Source: Planctomycetia bacterium (GTDB taxonomy: Bacteria; Planctomycetota; Planctomycetia; Pirellulales; JALHLM01). From it: 64,000 bases of DNA. The DNA is taken from assembly GCA_034440135.1 (NCBI GenBank), contig JAWXBP010000181.1, positions 1 through 64,000 of the forward strand, read 5' to 3'. The position numbers and the translations under genes were made by a program. Of the stretch, positions 272 through 31,828 are shown piece after piece; the stretch's first letter is position 1; each line of letters starts with the position of its first letter. The notes under the pieces were generated by a model that was not told the origin of the DNA, did not search any database, and saw only the letters and a list, made by a program, of their open reading frames with translations.

Positions 272-362
272 GGGTGCCACTGGCGGCTTGTCCGCGAGTG
301 CTTGAGATAGGCCCATCACCGGCACCAACTCCACACTGGCGGACAAGCCGCCAGTGGCACCC
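272..362. repeat. 91-bp long-stem palindromic element, copy A (arms GGGTGCCACTGGCGGCTTGTCCGC[G/C]AGTG / CACTGGCGGACAAGCCGCCAGTGGCACCC)
   Basis: 29-bp inverted arms with one mismatch around a 33-bp loop. The same arms recur at 12299-12389 and 31738-31828. Confidence 0.85.
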
Positions 363-407
363 GTCCTGTTGTGTTTTAGAGAGGGAACTTAACCGGCGGT
401 CGCAGCG

Positions 408-773
408 CTATTCGCTGTAATAGACCTGCCCGTGCGAGCTGCCGCAGCCGCAATCGCTGGTCGCGGTGCCGCAAGTCGTGCAACCGCTGCCGCCGTTGCA
501 ACTTTGGCCGCAGGTTTGGCAATCGGGAATGCAGCCGCCGCCATCATCGCGGCGCCCCCATTTGTTGTAGCCGGCGTGGCCGTGACCGACCCAGTTGGCG
601 CACTTGTCACAGGGATCCGGACAGGCTTTCCAATCGCCCCAGTAGCGATCGCCGCAGCCGGGGCCCGGCCCGCAGGCGGCGACATCGGGAAAGATGGTCC
701 AACAACAATGTTGGCAGCCTGTGTTCAACGCCAAGACGAGACAACACAGCGCCGCGAGCGCAATCCGTTTCAT
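408..773 (-). CDS. Cys-rich secreted lipoprotein (about 20 Cys in a ~95-aa mature region), hypothetical
   Basis: Internal Met gives MKRIALAALCCLVLALNTGCQ, a lipoprotein signal with lipobox LNTGC. The rest is dense in C-x-x-C/CG motifs and His (GHGHAGY). ATG at 771-773 on the minus strand. Confidence 0.5.
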   Translation of the reverse strand: MKRIALAALCCLVLALNTGCQHCCWTIFPDVAACGPGPGCGDRYWGDWKACPDPCDKCANWVGHGHAGYNKWGRRDDGGGCIPDCQTCGQSCNGGSGCTTCGTATSDCGCGSSHGQVYYSE

Positions 774-1112
774 GCCAGTTTCCCCCTGCTCCGCCAAATA
801 AGGCGAGCGGCGTAGCGCGCGCTCCAGCCAGTCCGGCGTGATCGATACAACCGTTATCGGCCGGACAATCGGCAAAATCGAGCGAACCGGCGAACTCGCG
901 AATCATGACTGTTTCTTGCCTGATTGTCGCGATCTCCGGGGAGCCGCAAGTCGCTATAAGTACATGTGTTACGTCGTTGTTGCCGTGTTCAGTCAAGTCA
1001 TTTCGCCGGGCGCTCGATGCTATTGGGGGACCGAGACTTGACGCGTCCCGGCAAGCGAACGACCTCAGAGATCGGCAGTTCAGATTCGCGTTGGGCCTAA
1101 CAGGCGGAGCCT

Positions 1113-31100: not shown

Positions 31101-31677
31101 TTTCGATCTCAACTCCGAAGACGTCGATCTCTGGATGGGCACGCTCAGCAAGTCGTTTGGCAGTTGCGGCGGTTACATCGCCGGTTGCCGCGCGGTCGTC
31201 GAGTATCTCAAGTTCACGGCGCCGGGCTTCGTCTACAGCGTCGGCATGTCGCCGCCGAATGCGGCGGCGGCGCTGGCGTCGTTGCAGATTCTCGAATCGG
31301 AACCGGAACGGGTCGGCCGGCTGCAGGACAACTCGCGACTGTTCCTCACGTTGGCAAAAAGCCGAGGGTTGAACACCGGCACCAGCAAGGATTCCCCGGT
31401 AGTGCCCGTGATCCTCGGGAACTCGATGCATTGCCTGCAGCTTTCCAAGGCGCTGCATCACCGCGGCATTAATGTGCAGCCGATTCTCTACCCGGCCGTG
31501 GAAGAACGGGCGGCGCGGCTGCGGTTCTTCATCACGTCCTGCCATACAGAAAAGCAGATTCGCCACACCGTCGACGTCGTGGCGGAAGAGCTGGCCCAAA
31601 TCAGCAAGCACTACGTGGCGAACGCGACGGAACACGCGCCGGCGCCAAGCGAAGTTGGCGCTACGATGCGGCGGTAG
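28177..31677 (+). CDS. tri-domain fatty acyl-AMP ligase (FAAL) - acyl carrier protein - alpha-oxoamine synthase (PLP; AONS/serine-palmitoyltransferase family)
   Basis: FAAL: LQYTSGSTGNPKGVMLSHHNLL and YRTGDLGF. ACP: LDSSITELGLDSLERLEIL (Ser attachment site). AOS: SYNYLGMS ... GTLSKSFGSCGGYIAG (PLP Lys). 1166 aa. Confidence 0.85.
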   Translation: MATVRRGDQTTVHRNEFPGSFFGPPTLVDLLRHRAAFQPNARVYTFLADGETQEIHLTYGELDRQARAIAATLQAEGLAGQRALLLFPAGLEFVAAFFGCLYAGVVAVPAYPPRLNRTMWRIQSIAADAEAPVALMSRAVLDRVQPLLEQSPELKQLSWVATDEIPLSAADAWYPPEVTGQSLAFLQYTSGSTGNPKGVMLSHHNLLHNCALIAHAFEIARSGKGIFWLPSYHDMGLIGGILQPLYVDCPNVLMSPMSFLQRPYRWLDAISRHRGTTSGGPNFAYELCIERITPEQRKGLDLSSWTVAFNGAEPVRAETLERFAEMFEPCGFRREAFYACYGLAEATLLVAGSYKLDAPVMRTFDARGLESGSAVQVPHDSTDGRLLVGCGRNLPDQAIVIADPQTMTTCPPDHVGEIWVKGPSVAQGYWKRPEESQTTFGARLADTQDGPFLRTGDLGFIDDGEIYVTGRLKDMIIIRGVNYYPQDIELTAERSHDGMRVGHSAAFSVEEDGREKLVVVAEIERREQSRPEPVLEAVRREISREHELNLDALVLIKAGSIPKTSSGKIQRHACRNEFLAGSLTVVAEWRDESGVELPEQPTREVARAKRVRDVLTVMDNQSSLRTPVAPPATNGHPIKAPEKIEEAPATTVDIAAQVLEQVRKVAKERAKNLTLDSSITELGLDSLERLEILGNLEDFFGGRFPESILPELETCRQVIDAVEKHLGDERETDRVRPEAAEIPEDQYRFDKMPDYVKLRQNIEMLDAAGLNPFFAVHQRVTNDTTLIDGRELINFSSYNYLGMSGDSEVAQAAKDAIERYGTSVSASRLVSGEKKLHRDLERAIADFIGAEDAICYVGGHSTNESTVGHLFGAGDLILHDSLAHNSIIQGAILSGARRRPFPHNDWKALDAILTDIRRDYRRVLVAIEGVYSMDGDIPDLPKFIEVKKRHKAILMVDEAHSAGVLGPHGRGIGEHFDLNSEDVDLWMGTLSKSFGSCGGYIAGCRAVVEYLKFTAPGFVYSVGMSPPNAAAALASLQILESEPERVGRLQDNSRLFLTLAKSRGLNTGTSKDSPVVPVILGNSMHCLQLSKALHHRGINVQPILYPAVEERAARLRFFITSCHTEKQIRHTVDVVAEELAQISKHYVANATEHAPAPSEVGATMRR

Positions 31678-31737
31678 CTTTCGCCGGGGCAAGTCACGAC
31701 CGCGCCGCTATGTGAGCACGCCTTAAACACGAGCGAT

Positions 31738-31828
31738 GGGTGCCACTGGCGGCTTGTCCGCCAGTGAGGGAGTTGGGCTCGCGATCGAGACCAAAACTGC
31801 ACTGGCGGACAAGCCGCCAGTGGCACCC
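31738..31828. repeat. 91-bp long-stem palindromic element, copy C (perfect 29-bp arms)
   Basis: GGGTGCCACTGGCGGCTTGTCCGCCAGTG - 33 nt - CACTGGCGGACAAGCCGCCAGTGGCACCC. Between the FAAL fusion and copA. Confidence 0.9.

What the first reader, a model, noticed from the sequence alone, without database searches (positions are those of the whole stretch)
272..31828. Second repeat family: 91-bp element with perfect 29-bp inverted arms and unrelated 33-bp loops (3 copies)
Copies at 272-362, 12299-12389 and 31738-31828 share arms GGGTGCCACTGGCGGCTTGTCCGCCAGTG and its reverse complement. There are 0-1 mismatches per copy. The three central 33-nt segments are unrelated. A 29-bp perfect stem is far longer than a terminator needs. 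Purifying selection on the ends only suggests terminal-inverted-repeat recognition, as in a MITE or another transposase-mobilised element, or an RNA with a protected long helix. Locations are 3' of the PAAR gene, the divergent promoter region of the TolC-like gene, and the FAAL-to-copA interval.
Basis: seen in the sequence. Interest (0 to 1): 0.6.

Follow-up and report, generated by a model that had tools for sequence, protein, structure and literature searches.

The report
REP hairpin pairs in a planctomycete
The three 91-bp repeats are inverted pairs of a 29-nt hairpin signal (a REP element, the bacterial "junk" palindrome thought to be copied by a domesticated transposase) that occurs almost unchanged across the phylum Planctomycetota; this is a known kind of element in a new and unusually conserved family.

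Summary
In detail: six 29-nt arms form three 91-bp units at the stated coordinates (0 expected by chance). Two details are wrong.

- **Loops:** they are homologous, not unrelated (17–21 of 33 positions once oriented; chance about 10).
- **Extent:** the 91 bp is only the core of a palindromic element of up to about 150 bp.

Each arm is itself a unit: foot GGGTGS, a 9-bp stem and loop CTYGY. That unit recurs in at least 120 loci, 99 of them labelled Planctomycetota, as singles or head-outward pairs with variable linkers. Compensatory stem changes show that the local hairpin, not the long 29-bp helix, is under selection. A sister sequence is published as flanking a RAYT (REP-associated tyrosine transposase) gene in a planctomycete.

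In old copies the arms stay nearly intact (about 1.5 % changed) while spacer and outer stems decay (30–40 %). Copy 2 is a net 102-nt in-frame insertion into the 5' end of a lipoprotein gene, absent from relatives and without a TA duplication at its left junction.

Best reading: a REP doublet (REPIN/BIME type). RAYT mobilisation is inferred, because no RAYT gene was found in about 1.5 Mb of held DNA. New member of a known kind, moderate interest.

The parts
243..392 (-). Copy 1, full element (canonical orientation is on the minus strand). The outer stems at 243-271 and 363-392 are decayed. The ends read C-TA(G)...T-TA-A.
   Evidence: The right-hand canonical outer stem matches the family consensus at 19 of 30 positions. 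The PAAR stop codon TAG 244-246 lies in the terminal CTAGGT. The orthologous site in relative L172 is also occupied but lacks the 30-nt stem corresponding to 363-392.
272..300 (+). Copy 1, REP unit: foot GGGTGC, stem CACTGGCGG, loop CTTGT, stem CCGCGAGTG (1 mismatch in the stem).
301..333 (.). Copy 1, 33-nt spacer. It is homologous to the family spacer, differing from the consensus at 13 of 33 positions.
334..362 (-). Copy 1, REP unit in inverted orientation (perfect match).
12299..12419 (+). Copy 2: REP, spacer, REP and the right outer stem (12390-12419, 23 of 30 matching the family consensus). There is no left outer stem, because the sequence to the left is ancestral. It is a net 102-nt in-frame insertion in the ancestral 5' end of the OEP-like lipoprotein gene.
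   Evidence: Relatives L176-L179 have no REP unit and N-termini 34 aa shorter. The left junction lies in a GGGTG microhomology.
12299..12327 (+). Copy 2, REP unit (perfect match).
12328..12360 (.). Copy 2, 33-nt spacer, in the opposite orientation to those of copies 1 and 3 on the window's plus strand.
12361..12389 (-). Copy 2, REP unit in inverted orientation. Its loop is CTCGT, a common family variant.
31708..31859 (+). Copy 3, full element with approximate ends. The outer stems at 31708-31737 and 31829-31859 are degenerate, with small indels. The ends read C-TA...TA-T.
31738..31766 (+). Copy 3, REP unit (perfect match).
31767..31799. Copy 3, 33-nt spacer, matching the provisional spacer consensus used at 26 of 33 positions.
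31800..31828 (-). Copy 3, REP unit in inverted orientation (perfect match). This is the only unit in the window flagged as terminator-like, because the spacer starts CAGTTTTG.

Best explanation
Each 91-bp repeat is a head-outward pair of REP (repetitive extragenic palindrome) units, that is, a REPIN/BIME-type doublet. It belongs to a REP family spread across Planctomycetota.

The functional unit is the 29-nt sequence: a single-stranded foot GGGTG(C/G), a 9-bp hairpin CACTGGCGG/CCGCCAGTG and a 5-nt loop CTYGY.

Shown here:
- the anatomy of the unit;
- its sharp conservation limits;
- covariation in the local hairpin;
- the pair architecture with lineage-specific linkers and outer stems;
- dispersal to at least 29 sites in the source population;
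- preservation of the two units while the rest of the element decays;
- insertion of one copy into a site that is empty in relatives.

Inferred, by analogy with E. coli, Stenotrophomonas and Marinomonas TnpA_REP and from a published RAYT-flanking sister REP in a planctomycete: the unit is recognised, strand-specifically and as a folded single-stranded DNA hairpin with its foot and loop bases, by a REP-associated tyrosine (HuH, Y1) transposase encoded once elsewhere in the genome. That enzyme would cut at nearby C|T sites and copy or move the doublet during replication without duplicating the target.

The long 29-bp arm-to-arm helix, and the full hairpin of about 150 nt, are consequences of pairing two units. 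If transcribed, they may also affect the 3' ends or translation of neighbouring mRNAs.
For: Unit anatomy: in 182 units from other genomes, conservation begins exactly at the foot and ends exactly after ...CAGTG. The foot (80-99 %) and loop (C 97 %, T 96 %, G 98 %) were not part of the search pattern.

Local hairpin under selection: among 40 unconstrained partner units there are 29 doubly compensated stem cells, against 7.7 +/- 2.2 in shuffles (0 of 500). Pairing is 94 %, against 28-56 % in slid registers. In 43 pairs the local hairpins have 8 broken pairs, against 39 unpaired positions in the arm-to-arm helix.

Architecture: 218 units, 117 paired and 101 single. Of the pairs, 50 of 60 are head-outward, with linkers of 2-90 nt and a mode of 20. 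This matches the layout around a bona fide RAYT on a Chloroflexota plasmid.

Literature:
- Table S1 of PMC6006769 lists at least 4 REPs of the form GGTGC-CACTGCTGG-CTTG[T/C]-CCAGCAGTG within 1 kb of RAYT ADY58460.1, and GGGTGC-footed REPs beside an acidobacterial RAYT. That exact variant is paired with our unit in L115.
- Short perfect-palindrome REPs are recognised through loop bases and foot (PMC8266576).
- RAYT cuts at C|T on either side of a REP (PMC3333891), which is compatible with the C|TAAGT ends.

Mobility: there are 29 unique loci in and around the source population, with unrelated flanks. Copy 2 is absent from orthologous sites in L176-L179, with no TA duplication at the left junction. 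Close relatives have none in 44 kb.

The same window also carries a canonical GTAG-footed REP family.
Against: No RAYT or Y1 gene was found in the window or in any of about 1.5 Mb of REP-adjacent DNA from about 75 genomes and metagenomes. This used phmmer/hmmsearch with two RAYTs, and the positive control scored E 1e-116. The rest of the source genome could not be searched.

The foot is GTGC in 80 % of units, not the canonical GT[AG]G.

Copy numbers in complete chromosomes appear low, at 1-6 loci with exact stems, unlike the hundreds typical of classical REPs.

Full-length copies have sharp C-TA...TA-G flanks, and CTAG is more than 10-fold enriched beside pairs in other genomes. That would also fit a TA-duplicating DDE transposase.

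Near-identity of a 29-mer across two classes is unusual for REPs, which normally differ between genera.
Confidence: 0.6

Rival explanations
1. The mobile unit is the whole palindrome of about 150 bp, acting as a classical MITE. A DDE transposase of the IS630/Tc1-mariner type would recognise the outer terminal inverted repeats (TAAGTGCACACGCAG...), insert at TA or CTAG and duplicate the TA. The REP pair would be internal cargo or a stabilising core.
For: Ends are sharp, C|TAAGT...ACTTA|G, with unrelated DNA outside. The base before is C in 16 of 23 loci and the base after is nearly always G. CTAG occurs at only 0.32 per kb yet lies 11-40 nt outside 11 of 80 pair sides in other genomes (P = 6.5e-9). 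Several upstream genes end in the terminal TAA/TAG, including the PAAR gene at copy 1, as expected if rare TA sites such as stop codons are the targets. CTAG targeting with TA duplication by IS630 is my own recollection and was not checked here.
Against: The outer stems are the least conserved part (34-41 % pairwise divergence, against about 3 % for the arms) and differ completely between genomes, while the REP units are constant. Copy 2 has no left outer stem and no TA at its left junction, and its apparent CTAG is ancestral sequence. The orthologous copy of copy 1 in L172 lacks the outer stem. Half of all units are single hairpins with no terminal-repeat context. The outer-stem sequence never occurs without the REP pair, and no transposase gene bounded by it was seen.
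Confidence: 0.15
2. The hairpin is primarily a host cis-element. It could be a binding site for a conserved nucleoid or RNA-processing protein, or an mRNA 3'-end stabiliser or terminator. It would be kept by selection at each site, with copying being incidental.
For: Old copies keep the two units almost intact (0-3 changes in 58 nt) while the spacer (7-15 of 33) and outer stems (6-42 of 60) decay. The orthologous copy in a strain whose neighbouring protein is 93 % identical keeps 27 of 29 unit positions. The unit is nearly invariant across Phycisphaerae and Planctomycetia. About 18 of 21 classifiable copies lie at the 3' end of at least one gene, with convergent intervals over-represented. E. 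coli REPs and BIMEs are known to bind host proteins and to stabilise mRNA (abstracts listed).
Against: On average no T-tract follows the hairpin, and only 1 of 6 units in the window passes a terminator screen. Copies also sit 5' of genes and inside an ancestral coding end (copies 2 and 3). Close relatives do without any copy in 44 kb and at the orthologous copy-2 site. A burst of near-identical copies with unrelated flanks indicates active copying. No candidate binding protein is known. This rival is also not exclusive of the best explanation.
Confidence: 0.15
3. It is a CRISPR-like mini-array (29-nt repeat plus a 33-nt spacer), an integron attC site, or a structured small RNA gene.
For: The 29 + 33 nt geometry resembles type I-E CRISPR spacing (my own knowledge). 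The elements fold very stably, at -41 to -51 kcal/mol with z-scores of -9 to -14.
Against: The repeats are inverted, not direct. The 'spacers' are homologous to one another, the copies are dispersed singly, and linker length varies from 2 to 90 nt in other genomes. No cas or integrase domain appears among the Pfam families reported for the window, though only 25 of 84 were listed. Reading the sequence directly shows no attC core sites (GTTRRRY). Rfam gives nothing at gathering thresholds, only sub-threshold generic long-hairpin (miRNA precursor) matches. Copies occur in both orientations relative to neighbouring genes.
Confidence: 0.03

Closest known systems
REP / BIME / REPIN elements with their RAYT (TnpA_REP) enzymes (E. 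coli, Pseudomonas, Stenotrophomonas, Marinomonas)
   Same: A short palindromic unit with an unpaired 5' foot. Units occur singly or as inverted, head-outward pairs with variable linkers. They are mostly intergenic, favour gene 3' ends, and several families can share one genome. The foot, loop and hairpin are the conserved parts, as for the 'short perfect palindrome' REPs whose loop bases are the recognition determinants.
   Different: The foot is GGGTGC or GGGTGG rather than GTAG. The cognate RAYT was not found. Apparent copy number is low in many genomes. The 29-mer is nearly identical across two classes of a phylum, whereas classical REPs differ between genera. In this population the pair is nested inside an extra palindrome of about 30 bp per side.
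REPs flanking RAYT ADY58460.1 in 'PbraA01' (Quentin et al. 2018, BMC Genomics 19:475, Additional file 2, Table S1). I take PbraA01 to be Planctomyces (Rubinisphaera) brasiliensis from the code and accession, which is my own knowledge.
   Same: GGTGC-CACTGCTGG-CTTG[T/C]-CCAGCAGTG has the same foot, the same first five stem bases, the same loop and the same 9+5+9 geometry. This exact variant is paired with our unit in one doublet (L115:237-345).
   Different: Four stem positions differ, as two compensated pairs (GCGG/CCGC versus CTGG/CCAG). The published entry is a table row only, and the family, its phylum-wide spread and its doublet carriers are not described there.
Palindromic MITEs of the Correia (Neisseria) and ERIC (enterobacteria) type (own knowledge, not checked here)
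   Same: An imperfect palindrome of about 150 bp with sharp ends at TA, intergenic and often abutting genes, able to fold into a long hairpin if transcribed.
   Different: Here the most conserved parts are two internal hairpin units, not the termini. The outer stems are lineage-specific and dispensable.
Subterminal hairpins of IS200/IS605 insertion sequences and their miniature derivatives
   Same: A hairpin plus a 5' guide-like foot, recognised as single-stranded DNA by a Y1 HuH enzyme, with insertion that duplicates no target (PMC3333891, PMC8266576).
   Different: There is no transposase gene between the hairpins, and the two hairpins are inverted copies of the same unit rather than distinct left and right ends.

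Membership tests
REP / REPIN (RAYT-associated) | A palindromic unit of 20-40 nt able to form a stem-loop | tested here: met
   The unit is 29 nt with a 9-bp stem and a 5-nt loop, at -11.4 kcal/mol as DNA. Covariation supports the stem: 29 doubly changed cells against 7.7 in shuffles, 0 of 500.
REP / REPIN (RAYT-associated) | A conserved unpaired 5' foot of the GT[AG]G type | tested here: inconclusive
   A conserved unpaired 6-nt foot GGGTG(C/G) is present. It reads GTGG in about 20 % of units and GTGC in about 80 %. RAYT-flanking REPs with GGTGC or GGGTGC feet are listed in PMC6006769 Table S1.
REP / REPIN (RAYT-associated) | Dispersed, multi-copy and mostly extragenic | tested here: met
   There are 3 pairs in 64 kb, 29 unique loci in the source population's metagenomes, and at least 120 loci in the genome collection. 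Copies 1 and 3 are intergenic. Copy 2 interrupts an ancestral 5' coding end.
REP / REPIN (RAYT-associated) | Units organised as inverted pairs with a less conserved linker | tested here: met
   50 of 60 pairs are head-outward. Linkers are homologous within a genome and different between genomes. Spacer divergence is 30 %, against about 3 % for the arms.
REP / REPIN (RAYT-associated) | A cognate RAYT gene in the same genome, itself flanked by the REP (a REPtron) | not testable with these tools
No RAYT was found in the window or in about 1.5 Mb of REP-adjacent DNA.
REP / REPIN (RAYT-associated) | Insertion without target-site duplication | tested here: inconclusive
   Copy 2 compared with the empty site in L178 shows a left junction in a GGGTG microhomology and no duplication. 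The right junction could not be resolved. Full-length copies have TA at both ends.
MITE mobilised by a DDE transposase | Terminal inverted repeats at the true ends | tested here: met
   The canonical form of about 150 bp has imperfect outer inverted repeats of about 30 bp and folds as one hairpin of -63.5 kcal/mol. They are absent from copy 2 and from the L172 orthologue.
MITE mobilised by a DDE transposase | Target-site duplication | tested here: inconclusive
   The C-TA...TA-G flanks and the CTAG enrichment are compatible with TA duplication. No empty site for a full-length copy was obtained, and copy 2 shows none.
MITE mobilised by a DDE transposase | An autonomous partner element with the same ends | tested here: not met
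   The outer-stem consensus (up to 4 mismatches) never occurs without the REP pair in any held sequence. The search space was limited to about 1.5 Mb.
CRISPR array | Direct repeats separated by unrelated spacers, in an array, usually near cas genes | tested here: not met
   The repeats are inverted, the spacers are homologous to each other, and the copies are 12-19 kb apart. No cas family appears among the Pfam families reported for the window.
Intrinsic terminator | A GC-rich hairpin followed directly by a T-tract | tested here: not met
   No T enrichment beyond 0.35 follows the unit in the profile of 182 units. Only 1 of 6 units in the window is flagged.

The most novel reading that the evidence does not exclude
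The 29-nt foot-hairpin-loop unit could be an ancient, phylum-wide signal. It has stayed almost invariant, with compensatory stem changes only, in both Phycisphaerae and Planctomycetia. It rides in interchangeable, lineage-specific carriers, and it is preserved in place long after the carrier has decayed. That would point to one of two things:
- a very long-lived RAYT-REPIN partnership spanning a whole phylum;
- a hairpin domesticated for a host function, such as a protein-binding or RNA-processing site.

In addition, the 33-nt centre flips orientation repeatedly between the inverted units, so each pair would behave as a small invertible DNA segment.
Probability: 0.25. Interest if true: 0.55.

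Novelty: new member of a known kind. Interest (0 to 1): 0.33.

Why it matters
REPs and REPINs have been studied almost entirely in Proteobacteria. There they are genus-specific, and they are argued to be long-term, vertically inherited partners of a single-copy domesticated transposase.

This family gives a contrasting case in a deep-branching phylum. The recognition unit is one nearly invariant 29-mer shared by two classes, while the linker and outer stems are freely exchanged.

If a matching RAYT is found, the family offers three things:
- a natural series of covarying hairpin variants for studying how RAYTs recognise their substrates;
- a test of whether such partnerships can persist over phylum-scale time;
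- cultured carriers (strain ZRK34, Maioricimonas sp. JC845) in which this could be tested.

Practically, these repeats break metagenome assemblies. They can also be mistaken for CRISPR-like or regulatory features, and they can alter gene starts: copy 2 remodels the 5' end of an outer-membrane lipoprotein gene.

Tried and rejected
- **Rfam.** Nothing at gathering thresholds in the whole window. At permissive thresholds only sub-threshold plant and animal miRNA-precursor models match, which reflects a generic long hairpin.
- **CRISPR mini-array, attC site, terminator.** Rejected on orientation, spacer homology, dispersal, lack of core sites and lack of a T-tract.
- **Associated gene.** Clustering all ORFs within 2.5 kb of the hairpins in 120 loci gave only generic families (ABC ATPase, sulfatase, radical SAM), with at most 6 of 120 loci per family.
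- **RAYT search.** All of the following were negative for the window and loci, and the positive control worked:
  - a regex for HuH...Y motifs;
  - phmmer with E. coli RayT;
  - phmmer with a Chloroflexota RAYT;
  - a two-sequence HMM against six-frame translations.
  A tblastn search of plasmids and a viral-contig scan gave no planctomycete RAYT.
- **'Empty' outer elements or an autonomous element with the same ends.** None found.
- **Empty site for copy 3.** Relatives of the FAAL gene have no synteny downstream.
- **Empty site for copy 1.** The 93 % relative is occupied and its contig ends in the repeat, and the 69 % relatives have different neighbours.
- **Source contig by exact protein.** Two look-ups were not on record. 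The source was later identified through P0127.
- **An early mistake of mine.** I read the CTAG at 12277 as copy 2's left end. The alignment with relatives shows that it is ancestral sequence.
- **Possible link between copy 2's spacer and the signal-peptide coding DNA of L178.** They share a TTGGTCGCG..TGGT.GGC stretch. I could not decide whether this is chance, given Leu/Val/Ala codons, or a remnant, so I draw no conclusion from it.
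Full report
**1. Checking the observation**

The 29-mer GGGTGCCACTGGCGGCTTGTCCGCCAGTG and its reverse complement occur exactly where stated: 272-300/334-362, 12299-12327/12361-12389 and 31738-31766/31800-31828. There is 1, 1 and 0 mismatch per copy, and no match in 100 shuffles. A Hamming scan up to 8 mismatches finds only these six units in the window. As single strands the 91-mers fold at -41 to -51 kcal/mol, with z-scores of -9 to -14.

The statement that the three 33-nt centres are unrelated is wrong. 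Copy 2's centre, reverse-complemented, matches those of copies 1 and 3 at 20 and 21 of 33 positions, and copies 1 and 3 match directly at 17 of 33. Shuffles give 10 +/- 2, and 20 or more is reached in at most 1 of 5000.

**2. Anatomy of the arm**

Each arm is itself a hairpin with a foot: GGGTGC | CACTGGCGG | CTTGT | CCGCCAGTG.

I scanned the genome collection for the stem alone (CACTGGCGG-N5-CCGCCAGTG). Although neither foot nor loop was part of the pattern, both are conserved in 182 units. The foot reads G 80 %, G 80 %, G 95 %, T 94 %, G 99 %, C/G 80/20 %. The loop reads C 97 %, T 96 %, T/C, G 98 %, T/C. Conservation starts and stops sharply at the unit's edges, and no T-tract follows.

Forty distinct partner units were not constrained by the search. 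Among them, 62 stem pairs have changed: 29 by compensatory changes on both sides, 11 to wobble pairs and 22 broken. The dedicated count gives 29 doubly changed cells against 7.7 +/- 2.2 in shuffles (0 of 500), and 94 % pairing against 28-56 % in slid registers.

In 43 pairs from other genomes, the two local hairpins have 8 broken pairs, whereas the arm-to-arm helix has 39 unpaired stem positions. The local hairpins are better kept in 18 pairs and never worse. Some pairs combine two compensated variants, for example ...GGCGG... with ...GGCTG....

**3. Arrangement and distribution**

Across the window and the 120 loci there are 218 units at up to 7 mismatches, 117 paired and 101 single. Of the 60 pairs, 50 are head-outward, with linkers of 2-90 nt and a mode of 20.

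By the record titles, the 120 loci are labelled as follows:

| Label | Loci |
|---|---|
| Phycisphaerae lineages | 53 |
| Planctomycetia lineages (including cultured ZRK34 and Maioricimonas sp. JC845) | 37 |
| Planctomycetota, unspecified | 9 |
| 'bacterium' | 8 |
| Anaerolineales (two MAGs) | 8 |
| Fimbriimonadaceae (one MAG) | 2 |
| Other (three single hits, at least two of which look like chance palindromes without the foot) | 3 |

The labels outside Planctomycetota may reflect misbinning, and I did not test this. Complete chromosomes contribute only 1-6 loci each, so copy number is low in many lineages. Linkers are homologous within a genome (L012, L119 and L019 in MAG CAZTAR01) but unrelated between genomes.

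**4. The element in the source population**

The window comes from a Planctomycetia (Pirellulales-like) MAG. P0127 is 100 % identical to the window's OEP-like protein and is annotated by NCBI with locus tag SGJ19_10470 on a 66.8-kb contig. Homologues of the FAAL gene are named Pirellulales.

I scanned the metagenome collection for one exact arm, 33 N and CACTGG. This returned 38 stretches, mostly from one microbial-mat sample assembled twice. Two of them are 100 % identical to window 9704-13060, and the rest share the window's GC content and match it only at the element. After de-duplication by distant flanks there are 29 unique loci.

These loci show that the element is larger than 91 bp. The consensus is:

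C|TAAGTGCACACGCAGAAGAAATAATGCGAT - REP - 33 nt - inverted REP - CRCATCAAACTTTCTGCGGGTGTACTTA|G

That is about 150 bp. The outer parts are themselves inverted repeats, the whole folds into one hairpin of -63.5 kcal/mol, and the sequence immediately outside is unrelated between loci.

Divergence differs sharply between compartments:

| Compartment | Pairwise divergence, 23 loci | Changes in the nine oldest copies |
|---|---|---|
| Outer stems | 34-41 % | 6-42 of 60 |
| Spacer | 30 % | 7-15 of 33 |
| REP arms | 3.4 % per unconstrained site (less conserved arm, against the consensus) | 0-3 of 58 |

The central spacer occurs in both orientations relative to the asymmetric outer stems (18 versus 5 loci). 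Close relatives by their flanks differ in spacer orientation (L126/L131 against L127/L139, and L150 against L128). So the centre has inverted at least three times.

**5. Ends and targets**

In full-length copies the base before TAAGT is C in 16 of 23 loci, and the base after CTTA is almost always G. In other genomes the pairs sit in different, lineage-specific outer palindromes that again tend to end at CTAG. CTAG occurs only 0.32 times per kb there, yet it lies 11-40 nt outside 11 of 80 pair sides (P = 6.5e-9). Several upstream genes have their stop codon inside the terminal CTAAG.

This could mean TA or CTAG targeting with TA duplication. It could equally mean cleavage at C|T, which is what E. 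coli TnpA_REP does on either side of a REP (PMC3333891).

**6. Context in the window and comparison with relatives**

*Copy 1 (243-392).* It lies between the PAAR gene (PF05488), whose stop TAG 244-246 falls in the element's end, and a convergent Cys-rich lipoprotein gene that ends at 408. In L172, a relative whose lipoprotein is 93 % identical, the same site carries GCGTGC-CACTGGCGG-CTCGT-CCGCCAGTG followed by TGG, 15 nt after the stop codon. The 30-nt outer stem is missing, and the contig ends inside the repeat. So this copy is old, the unit is retained and the outer stem is dispensable.

*Copy 2.* The relatives L176-L179 (orthologues 77-85 % identical) have a divergent Dioxygenase_C gene upstream, and the window has it too at 11328-11993 on the minus strand. 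They share a well-conserved intergenic region and have no REP unit. Their start codon aligns with the window's ATG at 12273/12289. Their N-termini run MSR(S/T)W-MA.. straight into a 23-aa lipoprotein signal peptide. The window instead has MSRQC-MTVM, then 34 extra residues, then SARILSVLMVLACLVALAGQSGC.

At the DNA level, homology runs up to the REP foot (L178 GATTGGGTGGCG against window GTGATGGGTGCC). The CTAG at 12277 is ancestral (TCCAGG in L178), and there is no TA duplication. The 30 nt to the right of the pair still match the family's outer stem at 23 of 30. So copy 2 is a net 102-nt in-frame insertion that lacks the left outer stem. The ORF 12273-15173 reads through it, while NCBI calls the start at ATG 12426, just past the hairpin.

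*Copy 3 (about 31708-31859).* It occupies most of the 215-nt interval between the FAAL-ACP-aminotransferase gene and the copper ATPase gene. Relatives of the FAAL gene have no synteny downstream and no REP unit in 44 kb.

Across the 29 loci, a crude classification gives about 10 convergent, 8 tandem and 3 divergent contexts.

**7. What recognises it**

No gene family recurs beside the units. No Y1/HuH gene is present in the window or in about 1.5 Mb of REP-adjacent DNA, although the control RAYT scores E 1e-116.

The literature supplies the link:
- Quentin et al. 2018 (PMC6006769, Table S1) list at least four REPs of the form GGTGC-CACTGCTGG-CTTG[T/C]-CCAGCAGTG within 1 kb of RAYT ADY58460.1 in a planctomycete. 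They also list GGGTGC-footed REPs beside an acidobacterial RAYT. That very variant is paired with our unit in L115.
- A RAYT on a Chloroflexota plasmid is flanked by head-outward REP pairs of the same layout.
- For short perfect-palindrome REPs, loop bases and the foot determine recognition, which is strand-specific on folded single-stranded DNA (PMC8266576).

The window also contains four units of a canonical GTAG-footed REP, so this genome hosts classical REP families.

**8. Explanation and rivals**

*Best supported (0.6).* The repeats are REP doublets of REPIN/BIME type. Their two units are kept because a hairpin-specific Y1 enzyme reads them. The spacer and outer stems are free to drift, invert or be lost.
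- Shown: unit anatomy, covariation, architecture, dispersal, differential conservation, and one insertion with an empty-site comparison.
- Inferred: the enzyme and the single-stranded copy mechanism.

*Rivals.*
- A DDE-type MITE using the outer repeats and a TA target (0.15). This is favoured by the CTAG/TA ends. It is disfavoured by the lability of those ends and by copy 2.
- A host cis-element (0.15). This is favoured by conservation in place and the bias towards gene 3' ends. It is disfavoured by absence from close relatives and the lack of terminator features, and it is not exclusive of the main reading.
- CRISPR-like, attC or small RNA (0.03). This is rejected on orientation, spacer homology and dispersal.

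**9. Novelty and limits**

The kind of element is known, and a sister sequence already sits in a published supplementary table. New here are:
- the definition of the family;
- its near-invariance across two classes;
- the interchangeable carriers;
- the recurrent inversion of the centre;
- a copy that remodels a gene's 5' end.

The main gaps are the missing RAYT and the unresolved question of target duplication for full-length copies. The source genome beyond 64 kb could not be searched, and all collection scans and look-ups are now used. Arm conservation in the metagenome set is partly ascertained, because one arm and six bases of the other were required, so I quote only the unconstrained positions.

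Noticed in passing
window 3493-3515 (+), 4270-4292 (-), 24558-24580 (-), 61734-61756 (-); L142:7900-7922: A second REP family with the canonical foot, GTAG-CCGAGGTC-NNN-GACCTCGG. Four units lie in the window (5 scan matches, two of them overlapping at one site; 0.02 expected) and one exact copy lies on a mat-metagenome contig. This shows that the genome carries classical GTAG-tagged REPs.
   Followed up: partly
window 10568-10647, 11230-11309, 15203-15282, 15887-15960, 16558-16631, 40526-40599: The 'first' repeat family has arms AAGCCCAGGGAAGGCC / GGCCTTCCCTGGGCTT around a variable centre of about 33-36 nt. It is often preceded by A-runs and followed by T-runs, like bidirectional terminators, and its pair-plus-diverged-centre architecture resembles the family studied here.
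   Followed up: no
window 12273-12426: The ORF 12273-15173 stays open through copy 2, so the ancestral start codon could still produce a protein with 34 element-encoded residues ahead of the lipoprotein signal peptide. Alternative starts are GTG 12381 inside the right REP unit, and GTG 12420 or ATG 12426 just after the hairpin.
   Followed up: partly
window about 12110-12205; L176, L178, L179 intergenic regions: Between the divergent dioxygenase and OEP-like genes there is a stretch conserved in all relatives, with a repeated motif...AATCGTTAAATCC...CAATCGTTAGGACGAT.CCGATCGTTAGGAC. It looks like an operator or promoter region.
   Followed up: no
L126-L163 (for example L127 and L139 against L126 and L131; L128 against L150): The 33-nt centre of the element is found in both orientations relative to the asymmetric outer stems (5 of 23 loci flipped, at least three independent events). 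This implies recurrent inversion between the 29-30-bp inverted units.
   Followed up: partly
window 26659-26696 and 27710-27747: A 38-nt inverted repeat, 95 % complementary and built from GAATGTC-like heptamers, brackets about 1 kb that contains the 221-aa ORF 26813-27478 (minus strand). That ORF aligns at about 80 % nucleotide identity with the MIP (aquaporin) gene of relative L123.
   Followed up: no
window 22079-22114, 42573-42615, 42626-42668: Another palindromic repeat family, TAGCCCGGAGCGCCAGCGAGGGAGAGT..., includes a 43-nt inverted pair only 10 nt apart (I12 and I15).
   Followed up: no
window 61217-61396: Tandem repeats with an 18-nt period (GCGCC.C.CGCACTGGTGCTCC-like) lie inside the ORF 60235-61641 (D1).
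   Followed up: no
L062:7579-7870 (Phycisphaeraceae MAG CAZBDZ01): REP units here form a direct tandem array separated by C-runs (CCCCCCCCGTGC-hairpin-TCCCCCCCC...), interrupted by an assembly gap. This arrangement differs from the usual inverted pairs.
   Followed up: no
L009, L010, L070, L091 (CAYVAM01); L077, L079, L095, L096 (CAYGZE01); L001, L068 (CAYONP01): MAGs labelled Anaerolineales and Fimbriimonadaceae carry several genuine units with the GGGTGC foot, in CAYVAM01 as mixed pairs with a compensated variant. This means either misbinned planctomycete contigs or transfer of the system across phyla.
   Followed up: no
L178:3588-3650 against window 12328-12350: The signal-peptide coding DNA of the relative's orthologue (CTTGGTCGCGTGGTTGGC) resembles copy 2's spacer (TTTGGTCGCGCTGGTGGGC) and the family spacer consensus. 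This may be chance from Leu/Val/Ala codons or a remnant, and I could not decide.
   Followed up: partly
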